A stretch of DNA of 64,000 nt from Leucoraja erinacea (GCF_028641065.1 NC_073401.1:22382001-22446000), one strand, 5' to 3'; counted from the stretch's first letter, positions 4,040 through 60,548 are shown. The notes: generated by a model from the sequence alone, not told the origin. A program made the numbers and translations.

Positions 4040-4088
4040 ATGTCTTGCTGGATGTCACTGGTTTGTGTGTTAGCATTTTCCGCAGCGT
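4040..4088 (+). CDS. IgL cluster 1 leader exon (MSCWMSLVCVLAFSAA)
   Basis: ATG, hydrophobic signal peptide, phase-1 donor T|GTGAGT. Confidence 0.93.
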
Positions 4089-4208
4089 GTGAGTATTTTA
4101 CTTCCAATGTTATTTATTCTGGAGTGCGATTAAACGTTTAGATATCTGACACTTCTGCTGTTTCGCTAATATATTGGTAAATGTATTTTTTTCTGGTTTG
4201 TTTTCCAG

Positions 4209-4553
4209 GCATAAATGCGCAAATTACACTAAATCAGCCGCCTTCAAAATCCACGTCTCCGGGACAAAACGCACTAATTTCCTGTATCTTGACTGGCGGC
4301 AGTTTAGGTAGTAGTTATGTTTCCTGGTACCAGCAGATTCCCGGAGCGGTTCCGCGGTTTCTGTTCTACTATTACTCGGGCAGCAGCATTACTAGAGGCT
4401 CGGGAGTTTCTGACCGTTTCGCGGGATCAGTGTCAGGCAACACTGCAACATTGACAATAGCGAATGTGCAGTTGGGGGACGCTGCGGACTATTACTGTGG
4501 TGTGTGGAAAAATCCTTTCATCTTCGGCAAAGGAACGAGGCTGGGTATTGGCG
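4209..4553 (+). CDS. IGLV: IgL cluster 1 germline-joined VJ exon (lambda type)
   Basis: ttttccAG acceptor; QITLNQPPS..C..WYQQ..DYYC-GVWKNPFI-FGKGTRL; donor G|GTAAGT. Confidence 0.97.
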
Positions 4554-4845
4554 GTAAGTAAACTATCTTCTACCTATGGGTTATTGATACTGCTGTGAAA
4601 AATAATTAGTTTTGTGTCGCTGATTGATGTTTCCAATAAAAGGCTTTTAAAGCTGATTTCTTAAATAATACACGACCAAGATCGAATCTCCTTTGGCAAA
4701 TTGGTTGACAACAGCAATGAAAGGACGAAATGACTGTCCATCTGTTTTTTTACTCTTAATTACTTTTCGGACGATGAACTAACATGGACCAAGCCAGGGT
4801 ACTAAGAAAACCGACCGTATGGAAACGGGAATTAACATTAGAGTG

Positions 4846-5010
4846 ACAAGGAACTGCAGATGCTGATTTGCAAAATAAAAACCCCCAAAACAGCAGAGGA
4901 GTGCCTCAGTGGGTCAGGCAGCATCTCTGGTGAACATAGATTGGCGATGACCAGAAACGCCTCATCCATCTTCTCCAGAGAAGCTCCCGAATCCATCACG
5001 TTGTGCATCT
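4846..5010. mobile_element. Penelope pLTR-derived repeat in J-C intron (two partial copies in inverted arrangement); present in clusters 1-5 and at the orthologous site of cluster 6 (59441-59560)
   Basis: acaaggaactgcagatgctg...gggtcaggcagcatctctgg followed by gaaacgcctc...tctccagagaagct. Confidence 0.6.
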
Positions 5011-5218
5011 TTCGGGGAATTATTTCTTGCCTTTAATGGCGCCTAGAATTCTAATGGAAAACGCACCTTCAATAATAGCTCATTTTCTGTTGATATTCCA
5101 TCACGAAATGTAAAATGTGGGGATTCTGCGGATCACTAGACCATGATAGACTTTTCCCAACATCGTGAACATGGAGAAATGTGGATTCTTGAAAATTATT
5201 GGTTCTCATCCCAAAATC

Positions 5219-5323
5219 GGCACGGTGGCGCAGCGGTTTAGCGCTGTAACCCAGTCGGTTCCATCCCGACTACGGGTACTGTCTGCACGAAGTTTGTTCG
5301 TTCTCCCCGTGACTGCATGTGGT
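5219..5323 (+). mobile_element. tRNA-derived SINE head fragment (HE1-like) in J-C intron; paralogs ~15909-16013, 26405-26509, 36989-37093, 47478-47582
   Basis: GGCACGGTGGCGCAGCGGT (A box), ggttccatccc (B-box-like), ttctccccgtgactgc. Confidence 0.7.
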
Positions 5324-6479
5324 ACAAATAAATTAAATCCTATTTCGAGAGGACTAGCTGCCACATTTATCCTTGTCCTCTTTTATACTTTTAAAACTGG
5401 TTAAATATTGCTCGTATACTTCTTTTGTAAGAGCTGAAGATTGTCATGGTCAATATTTAGCCGGGATAAACATCGGACGTAAACAATAACGCGGTGCGAG
5501 GTGTAGTGCAGCGACATTGGATTTGAAATCATCCATCGCTATGAATCTATGTTGTTGTTTTTAATTTTTATGCTTTAAAATCTTTGCTTAATTGTATCTC
5601 CCGGACATATTCAAAGTCAATGTCTGCTACCAATGATTTACTGCTAATGCGATATTGAATTCATTTCGTGATTTTGAAATTCCGGTACTTATGAGTTTTG
5701 TTGCCAGATGTAATTGTCATTACACTTAGAGCATGCGGATTCTGGAATCAATGGGACAGCGATTATTTCAATTTTACACGAAAAATAACTGAAAATGTGA
5801 AAGCAATTTGCGCATTGAATTTCCCAACCATATCAGTAATCAGCAAGTCATTACAGTCGATTTACTCTTTTTGCCATTGAGTGTACGGAGTGAGATTCGA
5901 TGATCAAATTCAGAAATTGAGCTAATTTTTTACTTCAAAAAGAAGACACAACATAAACGTAAACCATGTCCAAAATCAATTAAAAATGTGGGAACTAGTC
6001 TATGCATCGATGGGTTAAATGGCAAATTATTCGTGTCTCTTTTATCGAATCCTTCATGACACTTCGTTCTTTGGCCTTAATAAATGAAAGTATCCAAATA
6101 CGACATGTTTTAAGCGAGTTCAGTTGAAATTGGCACAATAGTTCCATAATTTATTAAATCCTGCAAATGGCTGTCGGGTCCAACACACGATTTTTATTTC
6201 AACTGGGGACAACGGAAATAATACTCTGGAGATCAATTAAAAACACTGACGAAATAATTTATGTTTAACCACAAAATAGAACGTGTCCCATTGTCATAAA
6301 TACCAATTAATCTTCGGAGATCACACCTGGAAATGATCTCACGTGCGCAATTGAACAATTTGAAACAATAGAGGAAAAATGTTTATTCATTAAAATGAAT
6401 GGATCCATGGTATTTTTAACTATGTTTTAACCGAAGCAGTTCTTCAACCTCCACTAATCTGTGATATTATTTTAAACAG

Positions 6480-6802
6480 CACCTCGCGCCCCCGCAATGT
6501 CCGTCCTCGGACCTTCAGCGGAAGAAATCGAGGGAAAGGGCACGGCCACCCTGGTGTGTTTGGTGAGCGGGTTTAATCCGGGTGCAGTGGACATTGAGTG
6601 GACCGTGGAGGGCAGTGCGAGAAGTGACGGCGTTGAGACCAGCCCAATCCAGCAGGAGAAGGACAACACGTTCAGTGCGAGCAGTTACCTGACTCTGCCA
6701 GTCACAGTCTGGAACTCAAACAATCTTTACTCTTGTGTGGTTAAACACGAAACCCAGGCAATCCCGTTTGAGGCAGACATCACCAGAACCGGCTGTATCT
6801 AA
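6480..6802 (+). CDS. IGLC: IgL cluster 1 constant exon (lambda type)
   Basis: aaacAG acceptor; APRAPAMSVLGPS..ATLVCLVSGFNPG..W..SSYLTL..YSCVVKHE..TGCI*; penultimate Cys for the H-L disulfide. Confidence 0.97.
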
Positions 6803-7104
6803 AACTCCTCAATTCCACCTAATGGAGCTGAAGTGATATATTTTGATAATTCTTTCTTTCTTTATTTGTGAAAAATTGGTCTGGGCATAATGTTTGTTTT
6901 TCGACCAGTCTTTGCGTTTAAAATCGTCGTTTGTCTTGCCAGTTGTGAACGCTATTCCATTAAAGCAATCAAATTGTTAATTGAACCTCCTATGCTATTC
7001 AATCTCAGCTGATGCATCTTCAAATATTCATTAATATTCAGTGGTCCGAAGTTTGTATTCTGGATGTTTGCTTACTGCTATCAGAAATTCAAACACGACT
7101 GTCA

Positions 7105-7110
7105 AATAAA
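7105..7110 (+). terminator. Candidate polyadenylation signal AATAAA ~300 bp after the C stop (conserved in clusters 1-5)
   Basis: gtcaAATAAAatc; an alternative ATTAAA lies at ~6959. Confidence 0.45.
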
Positions 7111-7386
7111 ATCAATAGTCCATTATTAAGAGCAATACATTTCCGTGACTATTATTTATGGTTTTTGACCTAATAGACGAAACAGCGATTTAGGTTGTCG
7201 AAAGTTATATAAAACCGGTGACTTTAAGTTGGTTCACTTTATCCAGCGCTCGCCCATAGGTAGCAGAAACACACACACAAACACGTCCATATGGAATCTC
7301 ATTCGAGTGAGGGCGGCTGAACATCATATACCGGCCTACTAATCAATTAGGAATCTATGTCGAACATGATGCTAAAACTAAAGAAA

Positions 7387-9165
7387 CATCTCCGACACCT
7401 CCCTCCCCTTTCCTGATCTCAATCTCTATGACAGGAGAGAGAATTATTTGGATGAGGGAATTAAATGCAAAATCTCCAGGTTTGCGGATGACACGAAGCT
7501 GGGGGGCAGTGTTAGCTGTGAGGAGGATGCTTGGAGGCTGCAAGGTGACTTGGATAGGTTGGGTGAGTGGGCAAATGCATGGCAGATGCAGTATAATGTG
7601 GATAAATGTGAGGTTATCCACTTTGGTGGCAAAACAGGAAAGTAAACTAGTCCATTATTAAGAGCAATACATTTTCGTGACTATTATTTCTGATTCGGAA
7701 GCAGTCAAATGTATGAAATCAAGATTTATGGGAAAAGGGGAGATGCAACGAGATCTGGGTGTCATGGTACACCAGTCATTGAAAGTAGGAATACAGGTGC
7801 AGCAGGCAGCGAAGAAAGCAAATGGTATGTTAGCATTCATAGCAAAAGGATTTGAGTATAAGAGCAGGGAGGTTCTACTGCAGTTGTACGGGGTCTTGGT
7901 GAGACCACACCTGGAGTATCGCGTACAGTATTGGTCTCCTAATCTGAGGAAAGACATTCTTGCCATAGAGGGAGTACAGAGAAGGCTCACCAGACTAATT
8001 CCTGGGATGGCAGGACTTTCACATGAAGAAAGACTGGATAGACTCGGCTTGTACACGCTAGAATTTAGAAGATTGAGGGGGGATCTTATAGAAACTTACA
8101 AAATTCTTAAGGGGTTGGACAAGCATGATGCAGGAAGATTATTCCCGATGTTGGAGAAGTCCAGAACTAGGGGTCACAGTTTAAGGATAAGAGGGAAGTA
8201 TTTTAGGACCGAGATGAGAAAATCATTTTTTACACGGAGAGTGCCGAATCTGTGGAATTCTCTGCCACAAAAGGTAGTTGAGGCCAGTTCAATGGCTATA
8301 TTGAGGGAGTTAGATGTGGCTCTAGGGGCTAAAGACATCAGGGGGGTATGGAGAGAAGGCAGGGATGGGATACTGAGATGGATTATAAGCCATGATCATA
8401 ATGAATGGCGGTGCAGGTTCGTAGGGCCGAATGGCCTACTCCTGCACCTATTTTCTATGTTTCTATGTTTCTATGAGATAGACCACCGACTGACGTGTAT
8501 TACAAACCCACTGACTCCCACAACTATCTCGGCTACACTACTTCCCACCCGGCTTCCTGCAAAGACTATCCCTCACTCCCAATTCGTCCGTCTGCACCGC
8601 ATCTGCGCACAAGGTGAGGTGTTCCATACATGGACATCCGAGATGTCCTCATTCTTTAGTGAACGGGAGTCCCCTTCCCCATCATAGATGATGCCCTCAC
8701 TCGTGTCTCCTCAGTACCCGCAGCTCCGCCCTTGTTCCCCTTCCCCCCAGTCGCAACAGAGACAGAGTTCCCCTGGTCCTTAAATTTGACCCCATCAGAC
8801 GTCGCATACACCACATAATCCTCCAACATTTTCGCCACCTCCAATGGGATCCCGACACTAGTCACATCTTTCCATCTCCACCCTTTTCCGCCTTCCGCAG
8901 AGATCCTCAGCAACTCCCTGGGTAACACATTCCTTCCCATCCAAATCACCGTCTCCTCCATTGCCAGAGTGAGGCGAAATGCAAATTGGAGGAACAGCAT
9001 CTCATATTCGCTGGGCAGCCTACAGCCAAGTGGAATGAATGTTGATTTAAGTAACATCAAGTAATCCTGACATTCCCTCTCTCTCTATCCCTCCCCCACC
9101 CAAGTCACACCAGCTCCTCGTCTTCGCCCAATGATCAGCTAACAACGGGCTTAAGAAGGAGAGAC
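7387..9165 (+). mobile_element. Penelope-like element remnant (RT C-terminus to 3' flank, internally deleted), interrupted by a CR1 insertion
   Basis: ISDTSLPF, IPHSQFVRLHRIC..SEMSSFF, aaattggaggaacagcatctc shared with the PLE at 1-836. Confidence 0.8.
7439..8474 (+). mobile_element. 5'-truncated CR1-type LINE inserted into the PLE, 4-bp GAGA target duplication
   Basis: [35 protein letters not shown]; (TTCTATGT)n tail; empty site visible at ~49800-49812. Confidence 0.92.
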
Positions 9166-9258
9166 AAATCAACCATGATTGAATGGTGGGTTGAAGATGG
9201 GTCGTGGCGTAATTCTACTATTCCTTACGACCTTATGACCTTATCACTGGTCCGCGCG

Positions 9259-10327
9259 GTAGGGATTAACGGGCCCCTTTCAGGCTGGCAGGAAGTGACG
9301 AGTGGGGTGCCGCGAGGCTCGGTGCTGGGACCGCAGCTATTTACAACATATGGTAATGATTTAGATGGAGGGATTAAAAGTAACATTAGCAAATTGCAGA
9401 TGATACAAAGCTGGGTGGCAGTGTGAAATGTGAAGTGGATGTTCTGAGAATGCAGCGTGACGTGGCCAGGTTGGGTGAGTGGGCAGATGCATGGCAGATG
9501 CGGTTTAATGTGAATAAATGTGAGGTTACCCAATTAGGTAGCAAAAACAGAAAGAAAGATTATTATGTAAATGGTGTCAATTTGGGAAAAGGGGAAGTAC
9601 TACGGGATCTGGGGGGGGGGTCTTTGTTCATCAATCAATGAAAGCAAGCATGCAGGTACAGAAGGCAGTGAAGGAAGCGAATGGCATGGTGGCCTTCATA
9701 ACAATAGGAGTTGAGTAAAGGAGCAAAGATTTCCTTCTGCAGTTGTACAAGGCTGTAGTGAGACCACACCTGGAGGATTGTGTGCAGTTTTGATCTTGAA
9801 ATTTGAGGAAGGACATTCTTGTTATTGAGGGAGTGCAGCGTAGGCTCACAAGGTTAATTCCAGAGATGGCGCGACTGTCATCTGCTGAGAGAATGGAGCG
9901 GTTGGGCTTGTCTACTCTGGAATTTAGAAGGATAAGAGGATATCTTATTGAGACATATAGGATTATTAAGGGTTTGCACACGCTAGAGGCAGGAAATATG
10001 TTCCCGATGTTGGGGGAGTCCAGAACCAGGGGCCACAGTTTAAGAATAAGGGATAAGCAATTTAGAACGGAGATGGGGAAACACTTTTTCACACTGAGAG
10101 TTGCGAGTCTTGTGGAATTCTCTGCCTCAGAGGAGGAGGCCGCTTCTCTGGAAACTTTCAAGAAATTGCTCGATAGGGCTCTTGAAGATAGCGGAGTCAG
10201 GGGGGATATGGGGAGAAGGCAGGAACAGGGTACTGATTGTGGATGATCATCCATGATCACATTGAATGGCCGTGCTGGCTTGAAGGGCCGTGTGGCCTAC
10301 GCCTGCACCTATTGTCTATTGTCTATT
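9259..10327 (+). mobile_element. 5'-truncated CR1-type LINE (second subfamily)
   Basis: VTSGVPRGSVLGP, WQMRFNVNKC, RTRGHSL; (CTATTGT)n tail; stops and frameshifts. Confidence 0.9.
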
Positions 10328-10339
10328 ACACAGCCATGC

Positions 10340-12950
10340 CTATCGCTAGCTAGCTCATTCTCCTTCAAATGGGAGTAAATCTCGATGAATTATCTCCAAT
10401 AGTTTCCTACCACTGACGTGCGTCTCACCGGCCTCTATTTCCCTGGATTCCTCTTACGTCTCAATCAACAAAGGAACAACTGGTCATTTCCCAGTCCTCT
10501 ATATGCTCGCCTCTGGCAATAGAAGAAGCAAATATTCTCAAGACCCCTGGAATCACCTCTCGCCTCCCTCAATAAACTGTGATAGATACCAACGGGTGCA
10601 GGGGACCTATCCAACTCAATGTTCCTCAAAAGCCCCACTGCCGCTCTTTTCAACCTCAAGCCCCAGCATATGTGCCCTAGCATATTAGTTTTCTCCACAC
10701 TGATCTCACCGTCATCCACGTCTTTCTCCTTGGTGAATACAGATGCAGAACGCACTCGTTTAACAATTCCGCTACATCCTTTATCCTTGATCAGACCTAC
10801 CGTATCCTTACACCCTTCTTGTTTTTTAACATATGCATAAAAATCCGCAGTATTTTCCTTAACTCAACAAATCAGTTACATTTCGTGACCAGTTTGGCCC
10901 GACTAATCACCCAGTTGAGCTATTTGCTACTCATCATTCCTCACAATCCCCGTATGATGGCACTTTGTTAAATCTGACATACGCTTCCGTTTTGTTTCTG
11001 AAAAGGTGTATAACCTCCGTGGTCATTCACGGATCCCTTACCATGCCATCGTTATCCATCCGCCTTACTGGAACGTGCTGATCCTGTACTTGGTTAAATA
11101 ACTCCCATATATTAGTTGTGGACATACTCAATAACAACTGCAACCAAGCTCCTGCCTAATGACATCTTAATCTGTTTTGCTTCTGCCAACATCCACACCA
11201 AATCTTTATTCAAACCTTATACAAAACCTTGTAATGTTGAGGTCACTATCCCCAAGTGCTCTTCCAGCATACCACCAGTCACGTGGCCAAGCACATTTCC
11301 CAACACAAGCTCCAGTATCGTCCCTCCTGGATTCAGACTATCCATACACCGTTTAAGGCAAATTTCTTGGATATACTTCATAAATTCTCATTTAACCCCC
11401 TTGCACTGAACAAAATACAGTCAATATTGGGGAGGTTAACGATACCCACTACAGCAACACTGTAGTTCATGCATCTGTATGCAGATCCGATCCATCTATT
11501 AGATTCGATGAGATTAGATTAGACCTAATCTAATAGATGGACGGATGGATCTCCCGCTGATTATTGGGTGTCCCATAATATAATCCCATTAGAGAGACTG
11601 GTCCTTTCTTATTTTTAAGCACAACCCACATGTCTCAATAGATGTACCCTCCACTACGTCCCCTCTGAGTTCCGCCATCCCAGATATCGAAGCCCTGATA
11701 CATGTCTCTCCCATAAGAAGGTTTTCATAATGGCCACGACATTATTATTCCAAGCACTGATCTCGCCTATCTACGTTCATTTAACTTCATCCACAATACT
11801 CCTTGCATTGAAGTAAACATGTCATCCCTTAATTGCCCCATAATCATGAACCAATCCCTGCCCATCTTTCCTTTGAGACTTACTTGTTATAACCTCCACT
11901 TTCCCATAATCCTTCCCACTTGCAGACTTGCTTCTTTCGTTCCCATTCTCTGTCCATTGTAACTTAAATTCTCCAGATTAGTACAAGCAACCTTCACTGA
12001 AAAGATTTTGGAGCTCCTTCAGTTCAAATGCAACGTGTCCCTCTTGTGCAGGTTGCCTTTGCGATAACAGAAATCTCAATGGTCTACGATTCGAATCATT
12101 TCCCCTGCACCAACCCCTCAGCCATGCATTCATCTGTCCCATCCTCCTATTGCTACACTCAATAACACCTGGCGACTGTAGTAATCTAGAGATGGTAATT
12201 TAAACCTTTTAGCTAATTCCCATTAGACACTCCGCAGGACCTCATTGCTCTTCGGTATATTTTGCTGATCTACTTATATTCACCCCAGAGGACCCCATCC
12301 ATTTTCCTAACTCTTTTCCCATCTCTTTATACTGACTCTATAGGACCTCATCCAGTTTCCTACATATCATTTGTGCGGACATGCACAACGACTTCTGTCT
12401 GTTCACCCACCAGGTCGAAAATGCTCTGCATTCGTTCCAGGACATTCTAGATCCTTGCACCAGAGAGGCAACAGTCCGTCCATGAGGCCTACTTGCTCCT
12501 GTCTGTCCCCCGCACTAATGTGGTTTATCACAATCACTGCCTGACTTCACACCGCTGCACATCAGAGACAGGCCCAGTGCCACAGACCTGACTACTGCTG
12601 CTGTCCCCTGAACGGTTACCCCCTCAACTGTTGCAAACGAACATAGCTGTTTTGCAGGGGGAAGCCTACAGGGCACTCCTGAACCCTCTGCCTACTCCCT
12701 TTGCTGCTGGTCACTCTTCTATTCTTTGTCCGCACCACACGTGTGAGCACCTCACTATGACTTCTAACTATGACTTGCTCACTCTCTGGACGAAGACGAG
12801 GTCATCCAATTGGAACTGCAGATCACTAACAGGGTCTTTCAGGAGCTGCACCTGGACACACCTCATGCAGATGTAATGTTCAGAGACGCTACGTCTTCTT
12901 CAGTTCCAACATCCCACAGGCTGAGCACACTAGCCTCCATCTCTATGACA
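10340..12950 (-). mobile_element. Decayed CR1-type LINE, 5' half (ORF1 and endonuclease/linker region)
   Basis: Minus-strand remnants ASVFTKEKD and DRSPAPVGIY..LLREAR; ILELVLGN..EHLG in the paralogous spacers; boundaries approximate. Confidence 0.7.
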
Positions 12951-14724
12951 CCAAGACCAGGTTGTGCTGCAAAGCAAACATAAAGTGACAGAACAAACCG
13001 TAACCTAAGGTAACCCTCACAGGAGTCTCTTGAGCTTAAGCCTCAATAAACCAATCTTACTATATATGGCCGCTCCACTTATGTTTACCTTCATTTTATT
13101 TGCAATAGTTATTTAACCAAATAACCAAGTGTGACACTTGCCCGCAAATAACGATATAGAAGGTGAACCAATATTCAAATAAGCATAACTCTGTCCGTTT
13201 GTAATGCAATGTAATTGCAATGTATTTAGTATACGCAAACAGTGCCTTCGTAATTCATTGTTACTTGCAGCGAGTGAACATATAGAATGTGGCAAGTGTC
13301 AAATAAAGCGGATTATTTTGCTGTGAATTAAGTTAATTTACTTGATTGCTGTCGGAGCTGCACACATCAAGGTAAGCTGAAAGCATTTCAGAAATACTAA
13401 GCAGTATTAAAAAAAATCGGAAACAAAGCTTGAGACATTGATGCCTCTGCTTGGCTTGTTTACAAGTCACCGATCTGAGGACTTTATAGGGCACTGTTCG
13501 GGCACATTCGTGGAAAGGACCGCTCTCTTTTGATTAATTGTCAGCCGAATTGTAAGAGGCCAAATGAGAAAATATTGATATTTGTCGGTTCTTTAGGCTG
13601 TATTTTCTTGTTGATATGCTTTAGCATTGATTCACACGGTGCTGTAGCAACCCACAATATGAAAAGAGGCTTTCGCTATAAATAGAGCGATTGGTTCGCA
13701 GTAAGAAATGTGCGCGCGTCATATCAAGCAACGCTGTTCACATCTAAATATAATTCCATATATCGAATGAAGGTTGACAGAATCTATACCATGGCAATCC
13801 AAACACCTACAGACTCACTTCACTTTTTTAACCGATAAAGCTACCTTGGCGATGAAATATATTTTTCAATTTCCTTCTCAATTGCACGTGCAATGTCAGT
13901 GAACCTGAACTAACCTTGGGTGCTACGAGCAAACATGGTTTCCAAAAATAACTCAAAAATCTTTGCATTGGTTTTGGCAGTGACTTGCGTAGGCAGTAAG
14001 TTGGCCAGAACTGGCACCGAGATTTAAAAAATCATAAATAATTTGCAGTCAATTGCAAATTCGCTTTCAAACATCTCTTAGTCGCTATCTTCATCATAAT
14101 ATTCGCCAGTATCAAATACAATGTGCAATTAAAGGGATGAAGGAACAAGTCCCGCGCAGTAGGATGGCACAGTGAGATCAGATTCATCAGTACTGGAATG
14201 ATGAGTTACCTCCATGAATATAATTTATTTTAACACACACTCTCTGCAACCACACAGAAAAGGATTCAAACTAAATGCAAAACCAGAATTGAATGTCCCG
14301 TTTCAAATAACCCAACATCTCCAGTTGTAGGAAGGAACTGCAGATGCTGGTTTACACCGAAGATAAGCACATTGCTGGATTTAAAGTGGAATAGGTGACG
14401 TTTCGGGTAACGACCCTTCTTCATACTGAGAGTCACGGGAGAGGGAAACTAGAGATATTAAAACAAAATATCTTACGTGCTTGGAAATATATTAAATTGT
14501 ACCGAGATACATAATTGGAAACTAAATCCTTATCTACCTAACATTTCGGAAATAATTTGACATAGGAACAATCTGGCAACATTTGATTGGCGCAGCGTCC
14601 ATTCTGATTAGAGTGTTTTGCATAATTAGTGAAGGCAGTGACGCCTCGCAACAGGGTTCATAAGCGACCTGGAGAGACACCTGATCAACCACTTCATCTG
14701 GCGCCCTCCACCAAAATAATTGCA

Positions 14725-14773
14725 ATGTCTTGCTGGATGTCACTGGTTTGTGCGTTAGCATTTTCCGCAGCAT
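14725..14773 (+). CDS. IgL cluster 2 leader exon (MSCWMSLVCALAFSAA)
   Basis: ATG, signal peptide, T|GTGAGT donor. Confidence 0.93.
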
Positions 14774-14897
14774 GTGAGTAATTTGCCTCCAAAGTTATTT
14801 ATTCTGGAGTGCGATTAAACGTTTAGATAGCTGACACTTCTGCTGTTTCGCTAATATCTTGGTTAATGTTGTACTTTTTTTCTGGTTTGTTTTCCAG

Positions 14898-15242
14898 GCA
14901 TAAATGCGCAAATTACACTAAATCAGCCGCCTTCAAAATCCACGTCTCCGGGGCAAAACGTGCAAATATCCTGTATCATGACTGGTGGCAGTTTAAGTAC
15001 CAACACTGTTTCCTGGTACCAGCAGATTCCCGGAGCGGTTCCGCGGTTTCTGTTCTACTATTACTCGGGCGGCAGCATTGTTAGAGGTTCGGGAGTTTCT
15101 GACCGTTTCGCGGGATCAGTGTCAGGCAACACTGCAACATTGACAATAGCGAATGTGCAGTTGGCGGACGCTGCGGACTATTACTGTGGTGTGTGGATAA
15201 ATCCTTTCATCTTCGGCAAAGGAACGAGGCTGGGTATTGGCG
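14898..15242 (+). CDS. IGLV: IgL cluster 2 germline-joined VJ exon
   Basis: In frame from acceptor: QITLNQPP..CIMTGGSLSTNTVSWYQQ..YYC-GVWINPFI-FGKG; G|GTAAGT. Confidence 0.97.
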
Positions 15243-17173
15243 GTAAGTAAACTATCTTCTACCTATGGGTTATTGATACTGCTGTGAAAAATAATTAGTT
15301 TTTTGTCGCTAATTGATGTTTCCAATTAAAGGCTTTTAAAGCTGATTTTTTAAATAATACGCGACCAAGATCGAATCTCCTTTGGCAAATTGGTTGACAA
15401 CAGCAATGAAAGGACGAAATGACTGTCCATCTGTTTTTTTTACTCTTAATTACTATTCGGACGATGAACTAACATTGACCAAGCCAGGGTACTAAGAAAA
15501 CCGACCATATGGAAACGGGAATTAACATTAGAGTGACAAGGAACTGCAGATGCTGATTTGCAAAATAAAACCCCCGAAAAAAGCAGAGGAGTGCCTCAGT
15601 GGGTCAGGCAGCATCTCTGGTGAACATAGATTGGCGATGACCCGAAACGCCTCATTCATCTTCTCCAGAGAAGCTCCCGAATCCATCACGTTGTGCATCT
15701 TTCGGGAAATTATTTCTTGCCTTTAATGGCGCCTAGAATTCTAATGGAAAACGCACCTTCAATAATAGCTCATTTTCTGTTGATATTCCATCACGAAATG
15801 TGAAATGTGGGGATTCTGCGGATCACTAGACCATGATAGACTTTTCCCAACATCGTGAACATGGAGAAATGTGGATTCTTGAAAATTATTGGTTCTCATC
15901 CAAAAATCGGCACGGTGGCGCAGCGGTTTAGCGCTGTAACCCAGTTGGTTCCATCCCAACTACGGATGCTGTCTGCACGGAGTTTGTTCGTTCTTCCCGT
16001 TACTGCATGTGGTACAAATAAATTAAATCCTATTTCGAGAGGACTAGCTGCCACATTTATCCTTGTCCTCTTTCATGCTTTTAAAACTGCTTAAATATTG
16101 CTTGTATACTTCTTTTGTAAGTGCTGAAGATTGTCATGGTCAATATTTAGCCGGGATAAACATCGGACGCAAACAATAACGCGGTGCGAGGTGTAGTGCA
16201 GCGACATTGGATTTGAAATCATCCATCGTTATGAATATATGGTGTTGTTTTTTAACTTTTATGCTTTCAAATGTTTGTTTAATTGTGTCTCCCGGACATA
16301 TTCAAAGTCAATGTCTGCTGCCAATGATTTACTGCTAATGCGATATTGAATTCATTTCGTGATTTTGAAATTCCGGTACCTATGAGTTTTGTTGCCAGAT
16401 GTAATTGTCATTACACTTAGAGCATGCGGATTCTGGAATCAATGGGACAGCGATTATTTCAATTTTACACGAAAAATAACTGAAAATGTGAAAGCAATTT
16501 GCGCATTGAATTTCCCAACCATATCAGTAATCAGCAAGTCATTACAGTCGATTTACTCCTTTTGCCATTGAGTGTACGGAGTGAGATTCGATGATCAAAT
16601 TCAGAAATTGAGCTAATTTTTTACTTCATAAAGAAGACACAACATAAACGTAAACCATGTCCAAAATCAATTAAAATATGCGGGAACTAGTCTATGCATC
16701 GATGGGTTAAATGGCAAATTATTCGTGTCTCTTTTTATCGAATCCTTCATGACACTTCGTTCTTTGGCCTTAATAAATGAAAGTATCCAAATAAGACATG
16801 TTTTAAGCGAGTTCAGTTGAAATTGGCACAATAGTTCCATAATTTATTAAATCCTGCAAATGGCTGTCGGGTCCAACACACGATTTTTATTTCAACTGGG
16901 GCCAATGGAAATAATACTCTGGAGATCAATTAAAAACACTGACGAAATAATTTATGTTTAACCACAAAATAGAACGTATCCCATTGTCATAAATACCAAT
17001 TAATCTTCGGCGATCACACCTGGAAAATATCTCACGTGCGCAATTGAACAATTTGAAACAAGTAGACGAAAAATGTTTATTCATTAAAATGAATGGATCC
17101 ATGGTATTTTTAATTATGTTTTAACCAAAGCAGTTCTTCAACCTCCACTAATCTGTGATATTATTTTAAACAG

Positions 17174-17496
17174 CACCTCGCGCCCCCGCAATGTCCGTCC
17201 TCGGACCTTCAGCGGAAGAAATCAAGGGAAAGGGCACGGCCACACTGCTGTGTTTGGTGAGCGGGTTTAATCCGGGTGCAGTGGACATTGAGTGGACCGT
17301 GGAAGGCAGTACGAGAAGTGACGGCGTTAAGACCAGCCCAATCCAGCAGGAGAAGGACAACACGTTCAGTGCGAGCAGTTACCTGACTCTGCCAGTCACA
17401 GTCTGGAACTCAAACAATCTTTACTCTTGTGTGGTTAAACACGAAACCCAGGCAATCCCGTTTGAGGCAGACATCACCAGAACCGGCTGTATCTAA
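17174..17496 (+). CDS. IGLC: IgL cluster 2 constant exon
   Basis: C1-set domain, intact, ends TGCI*. Confidence 0.97.
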
Positions 17497-18080
17497 AACT
17501 CCTCAATTCCACCTAATGGAGCTGAAGTGATATATTTTGATCATTCTTTCTTTCTATATTTGTGACAAATTGGTCTGGGCATATTGTTTGTTTTTCGACC
17601 AGTCTTTGCGTTTAAAGTCGTCGTTTGTCTTGCCGATTGTGAACGCCATTCTATTAAAGCAATCAAATTGTTAATTGAACCTCCTATGTTATTCAATCTC
17701 AGCTGATGCATCTTCAAATATTCATTAATATTCAGTGGTCTGAAGGTTGTATTCTGGATGTTTGCTTACTGCTATCATAAATTCAAACACGACTGTCAAA
17801 TAAAATCAATAGTCCATTATTAAGAGCAATACATTTCCGTGACTATTATTTATGGTTTTTGACCTAATAGACGAAACAGCGATTTAGGTTGTCGAAAGTT
17901 ATATAAAACCGGTGACTTTAAGTTGGTTCACTTTAACCAGCGCTCGCCCATAGGTAGCAGAAACACACACACAAACACGTCCATATGGAATCTCATTCGA
18001 GTGAGGGCGGCTGAACATCATATACCGGCCTACTAATCAATTAGGAATCTATGTCGAACATGATGCTAAAACTAAAGAAA

Positions 18081-19859
18081 CATCTCCGACACCTCCCTCC
18101 CCTTTCCTGATCTCAATCTCTATGACAGGAGAGAGAATTATTTGGATGAGGGAATTAAATGCAAAATCTCCAGGTTTGCGGATGACACGAAGCTGGGGGG
18201 CAGTGTTAGCTGTGAGGAGGATGCTAGGAGGCTGCAAGGTGACTTGGATAGGTTGGGTGAGTGGGCAAATGCATGGCAGATGCAGTATAATGTGGATAAA
18301 TGTGAGGTTATCCACTTTGGTGGCAAAACAGGAAAGTAAACTAGTCCATTATTAAGAGCAATACATTTTCGTGACTATTATTTCTGATTCGGAAGCAGTC
18401 AAATGTATGAAATCAAGATTTATGGGAAAAGGGGAGATGCAACGAGATCTGGGTGTCATGGTACACCAGTCATTGAAAGTAGGAATACAGGTGCAGCAGG
18501 CAGCGAAGAAAGCAAATGGTATGTTAGCATTCATAGCAAAAGGATTTGAGTATAAGAGCAGGGAGGTTCTACTGCAGTTGTACGGGGTCTTGGTGAGACC
18601 ACACCTGGAGTATCGCGTACAGTATTGGTCTCCTAATCTGAGGAAAGACATTCTTGCCATAGAGGGAGTACAGAGAAGGCTCACCAGACTAATTCCTGGG
18701 ATGGCAGGACTTTCACATGAAGAAAGACTGGATAGACTCGGCTTGTACACGCTGGAATTTAGAAGATTGAGGGGGGATCTTATAGAAACTTACAAAATTC
18801 TTAAGGGGTTGGACAAGCATGATGCAGGAAGATTATTCCCGATGTTGGAGAAGTCCAGAACTAGGGGTCACAGTTTAAGGATAAGAGGGAAGTATTTTAG
18901 GACCGAGATGAGAAAATCATTTTTTACACGGAGAGTGCCGAATCTGTGGAATTCTCTGCCACAAAAGGTAGTTGAGGCCAGTTCAATGGCTATATTGAGG
19001 GAGTTAGATGTAGCTCTAGGGACTAAAGACATCAGGGGGGTATGGAGAGAAGGCAGGGATGGGATACTGAGATGGATTATAAGCCATGATCATAATGAAT
19101 GGCGGTGCAGGTTCGTAGGGCCGAATGGCCTACTCCTGCACCTATTTTCTATGTTTCTATGTTTCTATGAGATAGACCACCGACTGACGTGTATTACAAA
19201 CCCACTGACTCCCACAACTATCTCGGCTACACTACTTCCCACCCGGCTTCCTGCAAAGACTATCCCTCACTCCCAATTCGTCCGTCTGCACCGCATCTGC
19301 GCACAAGGTGAGGTGTTCCATACATGGACATCCGAGATGTCCTCATTCTTTAGTGAACGGGAGTCCCCTTCCCCATCATAGATGATGCCCTCACTCGTGT
19401 CTCCTCAGTACCCGCAGCTCCGCCCTTGTTCCCCTTCCCCCCAGTCGCAACAGAGACAGAGTTCCCCTGGTCCTTAAATTTGACCCCATCAGACGTCGCA
19501 TACACCACATAATCCTCCAACATTTTCGCCACCTCCAATGGGATCCCGACACTAGTCACATCTTTCCATCTCCACCCTTTTCCGCCTTCCGCAGAGATCC
19601 TCAGCAACTCCCTGGGTAACACATTCCTTCCCATCCAAATCACCGTCTCCTCCATTGCCAGAGTGAGGCGAAATGCAAATTGGAGGAACAGCATCTCATA
19701 TTCGCTGGGCAGCCTACAGCCAAGTGGAATGAATGTTGATTTAAGTAACATCAAGTAATCCTGACATTCCCTCTCTCTCTATCCCTCCCCCACCCAAGTC
19801 ACACCAGCTCCTCGTCTTCGCCCAATGATCAGCTAACAACGGGCTTAAGAAGGAGAGAC
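18081..19859 (+). mobile_element. PLE remnant with nested CR1 (18133-19168); copy of 7387-9165
   Basis: Near-identical to spacer 1. Confidence 0.88.
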
Positions 19860-20995: not shown

Positions 20996-21004
20996 ACACA
21001 GCCA

Positions 21005-46343: not shown

Positions 46344-46467
46344 GTGAGTATTTTGCTTCCAAAGTTATTTATTCTGGAGTGCGATTAAACGTTTAGATAT
46401 CTGACACTTCTGCTCTTTCGCTAATATCTTGGTTAATGTTGTACTTTTTTTCTGGTTTGTTTTCCAG

Positions 46468-46812
46468 TCACAAATGCGCAAGTTGCACTAAATCAGCCGT
46501 CTTCAAAATCCACGTCTCTGGGGCAAAACGTGCAAATATCCTGTATCATGACTGGTGGCAGTTTAAGTACCAACATTGTTTCCTGGTACCAGCAGATTCC
46601 CGGAGCGGTTCCGCGGTTTCTGTTCTACTATTCCGCGGGCAGCAGCATTACTAGAGGTTCGGGAGTTTCTGACCGTTTCGCAGGATCAGTGTCAGGCAAC
46701 ACCATAACATTGACAATAGCGAATGTGCAGTCTGGGGACGCTGCGGACTATTACTGTGGTGTGTGGCTAAATCCTTTCATCTTCGGCAAAGGAACGAGGC
46801 TGGGTATTGGCG
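46468..46812 (+). CDS. IGLV: IgL cluster 5 germline-joined VJ exon
   Basis: QVALNQPSS..CIMTGGSLSTNIVSWYQQ..YYSAGSSITRG..YYC-GVWLNPFI-FGKG; in frame. Confidence 0.97.
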
Positions 46813-48740
46813 GTAAGTAAACTATCTTCTACCTATGGGTTATTGATACTGCTGTGAAAAATAATTAGTTTTGTGTCGCTGATTGATGTTTCCAATAAAA
46901 GGCTTTTAAAGCTGATTTTTTTAACAATACCCGACCAAGATCGAATCTCCTTTGGCGAATTGGTTGACAACAGCATGAAAGGACAAAATGACTGTCCATC
47001 TGTTTTTTTTACTCTTAATTACTATTCGGACGATGAGCTAACATTGACCAAGCCAGGGTACTAATAAAACCGACCGTATGGAAACGGGAATTAACATTAG
47101 AGTGACAAGGAACTGCAGATGCTGATTTGCAAAATAAAAACCCCCAAAAAAGCAGAGGAGTGCCTCAGTGGGTCAGGCAGCATCTCTGGTGAACATAGAT
47201 TGGCGACGACCCGAAACGCCTCATTCATCTTCTCCAGAGAAGCTCCCGAATCCATCACGTTGTGCATCTTTCGGGAAATTATTTCTTGCCTTTAATGGCG
47301 CCTAGAATTCTAATGGAAAACGCACCTTCAATAATAGCTCATTTTCTGTTGATATTCCATCACGAAATGTAAAATGTGGGGATTCTGCGGATCACTAGAC
47401 CATGATAGACTTTTCCCAACATCGTGAACATGGAGAAATGTGGATTCTTGAAAATTATTGGTTCTCATCCAAAAATCGGCACGGTGGCGCAGCGGTTTAG
47501 CGCTGTAACCCAGTCGGTTCCATCCCAACTACGGGTGCTGTCTGCACGGAGTTTGTTCGTTCTCCCCGTGACTGCATGTGGTACAAATAAATTAAATCCT
47601 ATTTCGAGAGGACTAACTGCCACATTTATCCTTGTCCTCTTTTATACTTTTAAAACTGCTTAAATATTGCTAGTATACTTTTTTTGTAAGTGCTGAAGAT
47701 TGTCATGGTCAATATTTAGCCGGGATAAACATCGGACGCAAACAATAACGCGGTGCGAGGTTTAGTGCAGCGACATTGGGTTTGAAATCATCCATCGTTA
47801 TGAATCTATGTTGTTGTTTTTAATTTTTATGCTTTAAAATCTTTGCTTAATTGTATCTCCCGGACATATTCAAAGTCAATGTATGCTGCCAATGATTTTC
47901 TGCTAATGCGATATTTAATTCATTTCGTGATTTTGAAATTCCGGTACTTATGAGTTTTGTTGCCAGATGGAATTGTCATTACACTTAGAGCATGCGGATC
48001 GTGGAATCAATGGGACAGCGATTATTTCAATTTTAGACGAAAAATAACTGAAAATGTGAAAGCAATTTGCGCATTGAATTTCCCAACCATATCAGTAATC
48101 AGCAAGTCATTGCAGTCGATTTACTCTTTTTGCCATTGAGTGTACGGAATGAGATTCGATGATCAAATTCAGAAATTGAGCTAATTTTTTACTTCAAAAA
48201 GAAATCACAACATAAACGTAAACCATGTCCAAAATCAATTAACAAATGCGGGAACTAGTCTATGCATCGATGGGTTAAATGGCAAATTATTCGTGTCTCT
48301 TTTATCGAATCCTTCATGACACTTCGTTCTTTGGCCTTAATAAATGAAAGTATCCAAATAAGACATGTTTTAAGCGAGTTCAGTTGAAATTGGCACAATA
48401 GTTCCATAATTTATTAAATCCTGCAAATGGCTGTCGGGTCCAACACACGATTTTTATTTCAACTGGGGCCAATGGAAATAATACTCTGGAGATCAATTAA
48501 AAACACTGACGAAATAATTTATGTTTAACCACAAAATAGAACGTGTCCCATTGTCATAAATACCAATTAATCTTCGACGATCACACCTGGAAAATATCTC
48601 ACGTGCGCAATTGAACAATTTGAAACAAGTAGAGGAAAAATGTTTATTCATTAAAATGAATGGATCCATGGTATTTTTAACTATGTTTTAACCGAAGCAG
48701 TTCTTCAACCTCCACTAATCTGTCATATTATTTTAAACAG

Positions 48741-49063
48741 CACCTCGCGCCCCCGCAATGTCCGTCCTCGGACCTTCAGCGGAAGAAATCAAGGGAAAGG
48801 GCACGGCCACCCTGCTGTGTTTGGTGAGCGGGTTTAATCCGGGTGCAGTGGACATTGAGTGGACCGTGGAGGGCAGTGCGAGAAGCGACGGCGTTGAGAC
48901 CAGCCCAATCCAGCAGGAGAAGGACAACACGTTCAGTGCGAGCAGTTACCTGACTCTGCCAGTCACAGTCTGGAACTCAAACAATCTTTACTCTTGTGTG
49001 GTTAAACACGAAACCCAGGCAATCCCGTTTAAGGCAGACATCACCAGAACCGGCTGTATCTAA
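48741..49063 (+). CDS. IGLC: IgL cluster 5 constant exon
   Basis: C1-set domain, intact. Confidence 0.97.
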
Positions 49064-49554
49064 AACTCCTCAATTCCACCTAATGGAGCTGAAGTGATAT
49101 ATTTTGATCCTTCTTTCTTTCTATATTTGTGAGAAATTGGCCTGGGCATATTGTTTGTTTTTCGACCAGTCTTTGCGTTTAAAATCGTCGTTTGTCTTGC
49201 CAATTGTGAACGCCATTCCATTAAAGCAATCAAATTGTTAATTGAACCTCCTATGTTATTCAATCTCAGCTGATGCATCTTCAAATATTCATTAATATTC
49301 AGTGGTCTGAAGGTTGTATTCTGGATGTTTGCTTACTGCTATCATAAATTCAAACACGACTGTCAAATAAAATCAATAGTCCATTATTAAGAGCAATACA
49401 TTTTCGTGACTATAATTTCTGATTCGGAAGCATCAAATGTATGAAATCAAGATTTATGGGTTTTGACCTGATAGACGAAACAGCGATTTAGGTTATCGAA
49501 CGTTATATAAAACCGGTGACTTTAAGTTGGTTCACTTTACCCAGCGCTCGCCCA

Positions 49555-49561
49555 ACACACA

Positions 49562-49623
<62 letters not shown>
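49555..49623. repeat. Compound microsatellite (CA)n(CT)n
   Basis: Direct reading; much shorter CA runs at the same site in clusters 1-4. Confidence 0.95.
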
Positions 49624-58287: not shown

Positions 58288-58336
58288 ATGTCTTGCTGGA
58301 TCTCACTAGTCTATGCGTTAGTGTTTTCCGCAGCTT
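58288..58336 (+). CDS. IgL cluster 6 leader exon (MSCWISLVYALVFSAA)
   Basis: ATG, signal peptide, T|GTGAGT donor. Confidence 0.92.
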
Positions 58337-58460
58337 GTGAGTATTTACTTCAACCGACATGATATTTAATCTCGAGTACGATTAAACCTTTCTATTTGTG
58401 AAATTCTGCTGTTTCTCTGATATTAGTTAATTTTCTACTTTTTTCTGGTTTGTTTTTCAG

Positions 58461-58805
58461 ATATAAATGCGCAATTTTCACTAAATCAGCCGTCTTCAAA
58501 ATCCACATCTCTGGGACAGAACGTGGAAATTGCCTGTACCCTGTCTGGCGGCAGTTTAGGTAGTAGCACCGTGTCCTGGTACCAGCAGATTCCAGGAGCG
58601 GTTCCGCGTTACTTGTTCCGCTATTGGTCGGGCAGCAGCATTTACAGAGGCTCGGGAGTTTCTGAACGTTTCTCCGGATCAGTGTCAGGCAACACTGCAA
58701 CATTGACAATATCGAACTTACAGTCTGGGGACGCTGCTGACTACTTCTGTGCTGTGTGGAAAGATGCTGTAATCTTCGGCAAAGGAACGAGGCTGAGTAT
58801 TGGCA
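58461..58805 (+). CDS. IGLV: IgL cluster 6 germline-joined VJ exon (diverged paralog)
   Basis: QFSLNQPSS..CTLSGGSLGSSTVSWYQQ..RYWSGSSIYRG..YFC-AVWKDAVI-FGKGTRL; A|GTAAGT. Confidence 0.97.
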
Positions 58806-58819
58806 GTAAGTAAAATACC

Positions 58820-59000
58820 TTCTATCTTTGCGTAGACACAAAAAGCTGGAGTAACGTAGCGACACAGGCTGCATCTCTGGAGAGAAGGAAAGGGTCGTAG
58901 GAAGGAACTGCAGATGTTGGTTTAAAACGAAGATAGGCACAACAAGCTGAACAGGCAGCATCTCTGTAGGGAATGAATAGGTCTGCAGTTCCTTCCTGCA
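58820..59000. mobile_element. Cluster-6-specific rearranged pLTR-derived repeat at the start of the J-C intron
   Basis: tagacacaaaaagctggagtaac..gcatctctggaga; taggaaggaactgcaga and its inverted copy tctgcagttccttcct. Confidence 0.6.
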
Positions 59001-59416
59001 TATTCGGTCTTTGGGTTAATGATATATAACAGTGAAAAGTAATTGGTTTTCTGTCGCTAATCGAAGGTTCAAAGGAAAAGCTTTTAACGCTATTATCTAT
59101 GTTCAGCGTTCGACTAAAGTCGAGTTTCCTTTGGCAAATTATTAGACGTTGCTCTATCAAAGGGCTTGATGCTATGACTGCTGTTTGTATTTTTTACACT
59201 AAATAGCTAAAATAAAAGGTATTTAAAGCCGATATGTTTTAAATTTTCGACCACGATCGAGTCTTTTTTGACAAATTAGTTGACAACAGCAATGAAAGGA
59301 CGAAACGGCTGTCCAGCTGTTTTTTTTAAATTCTTTATTACTTTGCTGACGGAAAGTTGACAATTATCAAACCTGAATAAGAATTAGACCGAACGTAAGG
59401 GAACGGTAAATAACTT

Positions 59417-59440
59417 GGGGGGGGGGGGGGGGGGGGGGGG
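59417..59440 (+). repeat. Poly-G tract (24 nt)
   Basis: Direct reading. Confidence 0.9.
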
Positions 59441-60225
59441 ACAAGGAACTGCAGGTGCTGGTTTACAAAAAAAGACACAAAGCTCTGGGGTGACTCAGCG
59501 GGTAGGGCAGCATCTCTGGTGAACATGGATAGGTGACTTTTGGTTCGGGTCCCTTCTTCAAATCAGTTTTGTTCCGTGTGACATCTTATAACGCATTTCG
59601 CTGTGGTGCCATTATGCGAAAGGAATAAGATTCGCTATTCAACTTCAGAAATATGGGCTGAATTATTACTTCAAAGAGAAGAGACTGGTCGAGAAAAACA
59701 AACATAAACGTTTCAGCAATAATGTAAATCATATCAACGACTATTTAAAATGCGAGAAACGGTAAATTTAACGTGGCTGCAAATTTATTGATTGTTAAAA
59801 CGACAAAATATTCTTGTCGCTAAAATCCAACCATTAGTAACATTTCGGTATCTGGTCTTAACAAATGAACAGATGAATTAAGGGAAGGTATTTAAACAAA
59901 ACTAAAGTTTTAAGCGCGTTTAGTGGAACTTTGGCTTCAATGAAAACCCGCAACTGGCTGTCGAGTAAAACAGTTGGGTTTTTTTTTATTGTAGCTGGAG
60001 CCAACGAAAATAATACTCTGGAGATCAATTCAAAACACTGCCGAAACAATATACTTTACGCTGCTGCGCATATTCTGTCCCATTGCCATAAATAGCAGTT
60101 ATTGTTTGGAGATCTCACTTGGAACGAATGAATCCATGTTATACCAACTGTATTTTTAACAAAGATAATGTTTTAACCGAAGCAGTTCTGCCAGCCCTAC
60201 TAATCTGTGATTTTATTTAAAATAG

Positions 60226-60548
60226 ATCCTCAGCCCCCCGCGGTGTCCGTGCTTGGACCTTCAGCGCAAGAATTGACGGGAAAGGGAACGGCCACCCTGG
60301 TGTGTTTGGTGAACGGGTTTAATCCGGGCGCTGTGGAAATTGACTGGACCGTGGACGGCAGTGCGAGGAGTGAAGGCGTTGTGACCAGCCGGATCCAACA
60401 GGCGGCGGACAACACGTTCAGTGCGAGCAGTTACCTAACTCTGCCAGCCACAGTGTGGAACTCACACGAGCTTTACTCCTGTGTGGTTAAACACGAGACT
60501 CAGGCTAACCCGCTGCAGGGAAACATCGCCAGGTCCAGGTGTCTGTAA
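60226..60548 (+). CDS. IGLC: IgL cluster 6 constant exon
   Basis: aatAG acceptor; PQPPAVSVLGPS..ATLVCLVNGFNPG..SRIQQAADNTFS..WNSHELYSCVVKHE..SRCL*. Confidence 0.97.

What the first reader, a model, noticed from the sequence alone, without database searches (positions are those of the whole stretch)
4040..60548. Tandem array of six intact, germline-joined VJ-C lambda light-chain genes: a hard-wired antibody repertoire
Seen: six L/VJ/C units, all in frame, with both introns retained, no RSS between V and J, and no pseudogene among them. Established: cartilaginous fish carry Ig genes in clusters, and their lambda (type II) light chains are pre-joined in the germline. Inference: retained introns exclude retroposed cDNA and point to RAG acting in germ cells, followed by duplication. 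Six ready-to-express genes 10-12 kb apart cannot use rearrangement for one-gene-per-cell choice, so another exclusion mechanism (or co-expression) must operate here.
Basis: partly seen in the sequence, partly recalled or inferred. Interest (0 to 1): 0.75.

Follow-up and report, generated by a model that had tools for sequence, protein, structure and literature searches.

The report
Pre-joined skate antibody light-chain gene array
These are six intact skate antibody light-chain genes inherited already assembled, a long-known oddity of sharks and rays; five are recent side-by-side copies that likely trade short pieces around their antigen-binding loops, and how one B cell would pick among them is still untested.

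Summary
Six leader/VJ/C genes are in frame, with GT-AG introns and no recombination signal at the V-J junction. They are lambda (type II) light chains by C-domain tree and neighbouring genes, and equal six public skate gene models. All-joined lambda genes in cartilaginous fish are known from reviews. The window is part of a 19-gene locus: 17 intact, 2 broken, so 'no pseudogene' holds only for the window. DNA depth near five times single copy argues against haplotype mis-assembly. One run shows both predicted splices. The six belong to a long-CDR2 V family whose 8-residue junction is shared with rays and some sharks, so the join is likely ancient; these genes carry no readable trace of RAG. Genes 1-5 are a young tandem expansion whose ancestry switches over promoter-leader-VJ, as gene conversion would give. 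Their octamer has one mismatch; gene 6 has none. One-gene-per-cell choice was not testable. New members of a known kind; modest interest.

The parts
4040..6802 (+). Gene 1: leader 4040-4088, joined VJ 4209-4553 (CDR1 4295-4318, CDR2 4370-4390, CDR3 4499-4522), C 6480-6802; 238 aa
   Evidence: both splices seen in a contig of run X18; equals public model P0201
14725..17496 (+). Gene 2: leader 14725-14773, VJ 14898-15242, C 17174-17496; 238 aa
   Evidence: equals P0199
25226..27982 (+). Gene 3: leader 25226-25274, VJ 25399-25737 (in-frame 6-nt deletion in CDR2), C 27660-27982; 236 aa
   Evidence: the 6-nt deletion is also in a DNA contig of run X2; equals P0198
35814..38576 (+). Gene 4: leader 35814-35862, VJ 35979-36323, C 38254-38576; 238 aa
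   Evidence: VJ and C match the end of P0200
46295..49063 (+). Gene 5: leader 46295-46343, VJ 46468-46812, C 48741-49063; 238 aa
   Evidence: equals P0002
58288..60548 (+). Gene 6: leader 58288-58336, VJ 58461-58805, C 60226-60548; 238 aa; older paralog, no octamer-like site within 260 bp of the start
   Evidence: equals P0205
3901..3960 (+). Gene 1 promoter: CCAAT box on the minus strand at -139, one-mismatch octamer at 3931-3938 (-109), TGAC motif at -87; same layout in genes 2-5 (octamer variant starting at 14616, 25117, 35705, 46186)
   Evidence: octamer consensus recalled; function not tested
7105..7110 (+). AATAAA 302 bases after the stop in genes 1-5 (gene 6 has only ATTAAA within 450 bases)
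   Evidence: an X18 contig runs to 7129
2476..49580 (+). Five-unit tandem block, unit about 10.5 kb, 95-97% identical between units; spacers hold repeated retroelement-like pieces (LINE-like by my reading, not classified by a tool)
   Evidence: self-BLAST; depth of shared contigs about five times the single-copy flank in run X2
7647..7731 (+). 85-bp insert in the spacer repeat after gene 1 (identical copy at 18341-18425 after gene 2), 97.6% to the 3' flank of gene 5 (49377-49459), replacing about 23 bases of the repeat

Best explanation
The window holds six intact lambda (type II) antibody light-chain genes of a skate with V and J already fused in the assembled genome; they likely descend from one ancient germ-line join, were multiplied by tandem duplication, and likely diversify by short gene-conversion swaps plus selection on the binding loops. 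Shown: gene structure, intact frames, lambda C, five-copy array, patchwork ancestry over promoter-leader-VJ, higher variability in CDRs, a spliced transcript of the gene 1-5 subfamily. From established knowledge: such genes are expressed by transcription and splicing without RAG, and shark Ig genes are somatically mutated. Inferred (about even odds): a B cell switches on one or a few of the 17 intact promoters at random because activating factors are limiting, and pairing with the heavy chain plus receptor feedback fixes one chain on the surface; exclusion would be leaky in mRNA, and promoter differences (octamer exact, one mismatch, or absent) would bias the choice.
For: Frames and splice sites. 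C tree: window genes fall in one 58-row clade (95/92) with three named sandbar-shark lambda chains, apart from named type I (sigma-2) and the split sigma-type genes. A type IA topoisomerase gene 0.55 Mb away and the best BCR N-terminal domain 2.9 Mb away on the same contig; TOP3B and BCR flank human IGL (recalled). Junction of 8 residues in 14 of 14 cluster-A genes, 17 of 17 Amblyraja and 15 of 15 parsed Rhinoraja long-CDR2 models (1 unparsed), and in sawfish, stingray, Heptranchias and Pristiophorus models. Depth in X2: 26.4 on a single-copy contig with 0 differences over 1,746 bases, 118-140 on contigs shared by the units. Mosaic: among genes 2-5 the 2+4/3+5 grouping holds at 62 of 69 informative sites from -3720 to -520 and +518 to +3300, but at 5 of 23 from -500 to +518; like sites cluster (33 adjacent pairs against 17.4, 0 of 20,000 shuffles). 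Variable columns among genes 1-5: CDRs 18 of 63, framework 24 of 276, J-C intron 115 of 1917, C 10 of 323. Both splices in X18. Reviews: all lambda genes studied in cartilaginous fish are germline-joined (PMC5192425, PMC4279169, passages). Limiting-factor and pairing model for shark IgH (PMC2435157, passages).
Against: No direct trace of RAG in these junctions and no split lambda relative to compare. Three raw-read RNA runs (1-5% of each read, tissue unknown) gave no reads on leader or VJ and under one read depth on C. The conversion window was chosen after seeing the data, and its 18 discordant sites fall into about three tracts, so it may be three events; selection keeping shuffled V regions fits as well as a targeted process. 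CDR pN/pS is 1.3 on only 14 synonymous sites per pair, not a significant test. The tool warns that contig depth is no copy number, and the tissue of the DNA runs is not given. No kappa chain was in the C tree. The exclusion step is borrowed from nurse-shark heavy chains and was not tested.
Confidence: 0.82

Rival explanations
1. Same genes, but no one-gene choice: several pre-joined lambda genes are co-expressed in each B cell and specificity rests on the heavy chain and on which light chain pairs best.
For: Genes 1-5 have near-identical promoters 10.5 kb apart (10-22 differences in 500 bases) with no rearrangement step to single one out. A review notes several productive light chains in single fish, mouse and pig cells (PMC8873125, passages).
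Against: Shark IgM appears clonally expressed (PMC2435157, passages). [quoted passage not shown]
Confidence: 0.35
2. The lambda VJ exon was never split: it is a relic of the pre-RAG gene, not a re-joined one.
For: No split lambda gene in this genome or, per reviews, in any cartilaginous fish studied; junction lengths are old. Retained introns fit this equally well.
Against: Sigma-type genes in this genome are split with a signal after V; sigma-2 is split in horn shark and joined in skate, and nurse-shark kappa shows recent joins with P-type bases (PMC5192425 passages, PMC2193156 passages and part 4). Several fixed junction lengths (5, 8, 9, 11) look like separate joins. Bony-vertebrate lambda rearranges (established), so an unsplit relic needs separate splitting events.
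Confidence: 0.1
3. The five-unit block is an assembly artefact (haplotypes or noisy reads laid in tandem).
For: Three 100-N gaps lie elsewhere in the locus, and only 3 sigma-2 genes were found against at least 89 reported (PMC2192082, abstract), so Ig clusters are hard to assemble here.
Against: No gap in the window; five versions cannot come from two haplotypes; units differ by about 1-4% in non-coding DNA; shared contigs are several times deeper than the single-copy flank in 4 of 4 DNA runs; other skates have several paralogs of the same subfamily.
Confidence: 0.04
4. RAG or AID is still reshaping these genes in skate germ cells.
For: Three second-cluster paralogs, alike at 446 of 489 intron columns, have unrelated junctions of 33, 34 and 27 nt, one out of frame. 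Raw AID-hotspot excess in the V exon of genes 1-5 (8 of 46 against 7 of 115, p 0.036).
Against: The 9- and 11-residue junction classes are shared with sharks, so old junctions in homogenised flanks explain it; the 34-nt junction holds a short tandem repeat that slippage or an assembly error would give. The hotspot excess vanished when split by CDR/framework over three paralog sets (p 0.27 and 0.63). All six window genes share one junction length.
Confidence: 0.08

Closest known systems
Cartilaginous-fish Ig lambda (type II, nurse shark NS3, sandbar shark lambda), all germline-joined (PMC5192425, PMC4279169, PMC2193156; passages read)
   Same: VJ-C minicluster with fused VJ, both introns, no recombination signal; C domain in the same clade, 65-67% identical to named sandbar-shark lambda.
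   Different: All 10 non-automatically named lambda-group records I retrieved (3 sandbar shark, 6 dogfish, 1 skate) have the short-CDR2 V; the six window genes use a long-CDR2 V family seen here only in automatic gene models and one unnamed contig protein not checked. 19 genes against six loci in nurse shark; 9-32 kb spacing against 120 to over 200 kb between nurse-shark IgM clusters.
Skate type I (sigma-2, sigma-cart) light chains, at least 89 joined clusters (PMC2192082, abstract only)
   Same: All joined, CDR-biased replacement differences, expressed without rearrangement, possibly somatically mutated; also a long CDR2.
   Different: Different isotype: its C is about 40% identical to the window's and forms its own clade; the genes lie on other contigs.
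Nurse shark NS4 (kappa) recently joined genes (PMC2193156, passages and part 4 of 7)
   Same: Proposed origin by RAG in germ cells followed by fixation.
   Different: There split and joined relatives coexist and junction processing can be read; here no split relative was found and the junction is old.
Bony-vertebrate V-lambda with long CDR2 (turtle, bat and unnamed representatives)
   Same: Long CDR2 and similar framework-2 motif; best single-domain matches are 55-61% identical; the Atlas lists IGLV clusters first.
   Different: Those genes rearrange somatically (established). The tree did not resolve whether the skate family is their sister.

Membership tests
Cartilaginous-fish Ig lambda (type II) | C domain groups with named type II / lambda chains, apart from sigma and sigma-2 | tested here: met
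   58-row clade 95/92 with three sandbar-shark lambda chains; named skate type I and split sigma-type genes outside (65 rows, 106 columns)
Cartilaginous-fish Ig lambda (type II) | C domain distinct from shark kappa (type III) | not tested
   No named shark kappa chain was retrieved; 65-67% identity to sandbar lambda C makes kappa unlikely
Cartilaginous-fish Ig lambda (type II) | One V, one J, one C per cluster, V and J fused, no recombination signal | tested here: met
   6 of 6 in the window, 19 of 19 in the locus; control signal found in 2 of 2 sigma-type genes
Cartilaginous-fish Ig lambda (type II) | Joined in germ-line (non-lymphoid) DNA | tested here: inconclusive
   DNA contigs bridge the junction in runs X1 and X11 (2 of 4 laid; no counted cover at that base in X2 and X6); tissues not given. 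Sharing across species supports it
Cartilaginous-fish Ig lambda (type II) | V of the classical short-CDR2 type II family | tested here: not met
   Window V genes form a separate long-CDR2 clade (33 rows, 100/100) present in rays and sharks and always with lambda C; the five second-cluster genes are the classical type. This marks a second V family within lambda, not another isotype
Cartilaginous-fish Ig lambda (type II) | Position matching the tetrapod IGL region | tested here: inconclusive
   Type IA topoisomerase gene and BCR domain on the same contig within 0.55 and 2.9 Mb; TOP3A versus TOP3B not told apart; human neighbours recalled
Cartilaginous-fish Ig lambda (type II) | Transcribed and spliced | tested here: met
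Cartilaginous-fish Ig lambda (type II) | Octamer in the light-chain promoter | tested here: inconclusive
   Exact in 6 of 19 genes, one mismatch in 6 (genes 1-5 and one more), none at that place in 7 (gene 6 among them)
Cartilaginous-fish Ig lambda (type II) | Pairs with a heavy chain and is expressed one gene per cell | not testable with these tools
   Needs single-cell or protein data; terminal cysteine for the interchain bond is present in 6 of 6
Sigma-2 (type I, sigma-cart) | C and V group with named skate type I | tested here: not met
   Separate clades in both trees; about 40% C identity
Lambda-2 of ray-finned fish | V and C group with gar/teleost lambda-2 | not tested
   No named lambda-2 sequence retrieved; C is plainly with shark lambda. 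PMC5985310 (passages) found no lambda-2 in cartilaginous fish
Processed retrocopy | Loss of introns | tested here: not met
   Both introns and the upstream promoter are present in 6 of 6

The most novel reading that the evidence does not exclude
The skate lambda locus is a rearrangement-free choice system: 17 intact pre-joined genes in two anciently and separately joined V families, beside only two split light-chain genes found and no kappa found, where germ-line gene conversion concentrated on promoter-leader-VJ reshuffles CDR blocks in place of V-J combination, and graded promoters set the odds of a random one-gene choice akin to odorant-receptor choice.
Probability: 0.2. Interest if true: 0.7.

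Novelty: new member of a known kind. Interest (0 to 1): 0.3.

Why it matters
The gene class has been known since the 1990s and the six proteins already stand in public databases under an automatic name. What the locus adds is a handle: with every paralog mapped and diagnostic bases known in each CDR, one single-cell experiment could show whether a vertebrate B cell can keep to one light chain without any rearrangement. The long-CDR2 V family, the locus map, the promoter gradient and the conversion patchwork were not found in eight full-text searches, but four key papers were not held, so they may be in print.

Tried and rejected
Germ-line AID footprint: raw excess did not survive splitting by CDR/framework over three paralog sets; rejected. 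Separate origin of the two shark lambda V families relative to bony-vertebrate V-lambda: the free tree keeps them apart, but holding them together is not rejected (p-AU 0.344, 65 rows, about 98 columns; one mis-cut row dropped); undecided. Recent RAG joins in the second cluster: not needed, since the junction lengths are shared with sharks. Sigma-2 identity, raised by the long CDR2: rejected by both trees. The automatic name 'lambda-1 light chain-like' is no test: it is also given to sigma-2 models. Kappa: a kappa-like V query (unnamed, labelled by my reading of its motifs) returned only the 19 lambda V exons, 136 of 209 candidates scored, and the C search showed no extra light-chain class; absence is not proven. 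No RNA holder was listed by the run index; three raw-read RNA runs of unknown tissue gave no V-exon reads, which is no evidence on expression. PDB search gave only generic human V-lambda-type hits. Structure and complex prediction were not run: an Ig fold adds nothing. Earlier scan notes: none on these genes. Papers not held: the 2017 shark isotype-exclusion paper, the 2007 four-isotype paper, a 2024 isotype review; of the 1995 skate paper only the abstract was served. No supplements were read; gene tables there (e.g. PMC12227049 table S1) may already list this locus in other species. The 345 kb between the fetched stretches of the two clusters was not read, only searched.
Full report
Observation. 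Self-comparison shows five units of about 10.5 kb at 95-97% identity from 2476 to 49580 and a sixth, more distant gene. Each of the six has a 49-nt leader, a fused VJ exon and a C exon. With the J donor corrected, all six splice at GT..AG sites to 236-238 residues without internal stops. No recombination-signal match lies in the window. Over 414 kb of the wider locus the 19 loose matches include none at a junction, whereas a like scan finds a near-perfect 12-spacer signal after V in both split sigma-type genes on another contig.

Context. The window's genome holds 19 C exons and 19 VJ exons of this kind on one contig: 14 genes in about 195 kb around the window and 5 genes about 420 kb further on. 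Seventeen are intact. The gene after gene 6 has a TAG in V, one second-cluster gene has a 34-nt out-of-frame junction, and an orphan C fragment lies upstream. Three 100-N gaps lie in the locus, none in the window, so the count may be off. Other light chains found were three joined sigma-2 genes on two small contigs and two split sigma-type genes; no kappa was found. These are lower bounds: at least 89 type I clusters were reported for skate (PMC2192082, abstract).

Identity. The closest proteins are skate and ray models, and six public models labelled Leucoraja erinacea match the six translations. Their automatic name is not diagnostic, as sigma-2 models carry it too. In the C tree the window genes join named sandbar-shark lambda chains in a 58-row clade (95/92), apart from named skate type I and the sigma-type genes; no kappa was included. 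A type IA topoisomerase gene and a BCR domain lie within 0.55 and 2.9 Mb, as TOP3B and BCR do beside human IGL (recalled; TOP3A/B not told apart). The V tree splits lambda into the classical short-CDR2 family (second cluster and all 10 non-automatically named records retrieved) and a long-CDR2 family (33 rows, 100/100) that holds the window genes and models from rays and several shark orders. Whether the two families are each closer to rearranging bony-vertebrate V-lambda is undecided (p-AU 0.344).

Age of the join. All 14 first-cluster genes have an 8-residue junction, as do 17 of 17 Amblyraja and 15 of 15 parsed Rhinoraja models of this family and models from sawfish, stingrays, Heptranchias and Pristiophorus; other sharks and some rays have 9 (overall 53 of 8, 22 of 9, 2 other, 3 unparsed). 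I saw those as protein models, not DNA. The simplest reading is a join older than the shark-ray split (some 250-300 million years, recalled). RAG in germ cells is the accepted origin, argued from nurse-shark kappa (PMC2193156, passages and part 4), but these six genes hold no readable evidence for it. Retained introns exclude a processed retrocopy, not a never-split gene, which I rate at 0.1.

Is the array real? In DNA run X2 a single-copy contig matches 900-2645 with no difference at depth 26.4, while contigs shared by the units reach 118-140; X6, X1 and X11 also show several-fold ratios. X2 may be the source sample, and the tool warns that depth is no copy number. Contigs bridge the junction in X1 and X11; X2 and X6 show no counted cover at that base. 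Tissues are not given. Other skates carry several paralogs of the same subfamily.

How the copies diverge. Among genes 1-5, 18 of 63 CDR columns vary, against 24 of 276 framework, 115 of 1917 intron and 10 of 323 C columns; pN/pS is 1.3 in CDRs, 0.7 in framework and 0.6 in C, on few sites. Among genes 2-5, 123 informative sites fall into blocks: 31 of 31 group 2+3/4+5 far upstream; 62 of 69 group 2+4/3+5 on both sides of the gene start, as a two-gene duplication would give; but only 5 of 23 do so from -500 to +518, where promoter, CDR1 and CDR3 each follow another grouping. This is what short conversion tracts would give. It may be only three events and the window was chosen after the fact. 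An AID-hotspot signal did not survive stratification.

Expression. Contigs of X18 skip both introns exactly as predicted and are closest to genes 3/4, with two bases near the junction seen in none of the five (allele, related species or somatic mutation). Three raw-read RNA runs of unknown tissue gave no V-exon reads. The octamer (consensus recalled) is exact in 6 of 19 genes, one base off in 6 including genes 1-5, and missing at that place in 7 including gene 6, so equal readiness is not shown.

Mechanism. Expression needs only transcription and splicing. For choice, I commit at about even odds to random activation of one or a few promoters by limiting factors, fixed by heavy-chain pairing and receptor feedback, by analogy with the model for nurse-shark heavy chains (PMC2435157, passages). 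Co-expression is the main rival (0.35). Neither was testable here.

What is known. Two reviews state that all lambda genes studied in cartilaginous fish are germline-joined (PMC5192425, PMC4279169; passages). PMC5985310 lists little-skate type II as lambda and kappa as not determined (passages). PMC12227049 says cluster distribution in these genomes is not well known (passages). PMC8873125 and PMC6901605 were seen in passages. Eight searches found no description of this locus or of the long-CDR2 family, but key papers were not held and no supplements were read.

Verdict. A correct observation of a known gene class. The locus map, second V family, promoter gradient and conversion patchwork are modest additions that make an old question testable. 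Interest 0.3.

Noticed in passing
window 7647-7731 and 18341-18425; donor 49377-49459: An 85-bp piece of gene 5's 3' flank, starting just after its AATAAA, replaces about 23 bases of a spacer repeat in units 1 and 2 (identical in both); looks like a templated insertion from 31-42 kb away.
   Followed up: partly
G000:C25:22943256-22986698 (L026, L027, L030): Three close short-CDR2 paralogs have unrelated junctions of 33, 34 and 27 nt; the 34-nt one is out of frame and holds a short tandem repeat.
   Followed up: partly
G000:C25:22472924-22473265 (L013): Close paralog of gene 6 with a TAG in the V exon after CDR2.
   Followed up: yes
G000:C25:22364024-22364211 (L009): Orphan, broken lambda C fragment with no VJ found beside it.
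   Followed up: no
G000:C25:22339490-22356737 (L006-L008): Two first-cluster genes lie on the minus strand among plus-strand neighbours, suggesting a local inversion.
   Followed up: no
L035:4860-5580 and L036:4380-5100 (G000:C29): The only split light-chain genes found: two sigma-type clusters about 24 kb apart on opposite strands; the V signal is near-perfect, the J signal has an exact heptamer but a poor nonamer (4 mismatches at spacer 22).
   Followed up: partly
whole genome G000: No kappa-type V or C found, and only 3 sigma-2 genes against at least 89 reported for skate; the assembly or the search may miss many.
   Followed up: partly
G000:C25:22943695, 22957505, 22986795: An exact heptamer with a 2-mismatch nonamer at spacer 22 overlaps the leader splice donor of three second-cluster genes; probably chance.
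   Followed up: no
proteins P0350, P0389: Basking-shark and white-shark light-chain models with a divergent long-CDR2 V that sits weakly beside the window's V family; perhaps a third lambda V family.
   Followed up: no
window 4272-4280 against P0004, P0006: The two framework-1 types that split genes 1/4 from 2/3/5 also occur in Amblyraja models, so some paralog differences predate the species split.
   Followed up: no
window 3640-3740, 4850-4945, 5220-5315: Very high-copy short repeats beside and inside gene 1 (contig depth in the hundreds of thousands to millions), also abundant in RNA reads.
   Followed up: no
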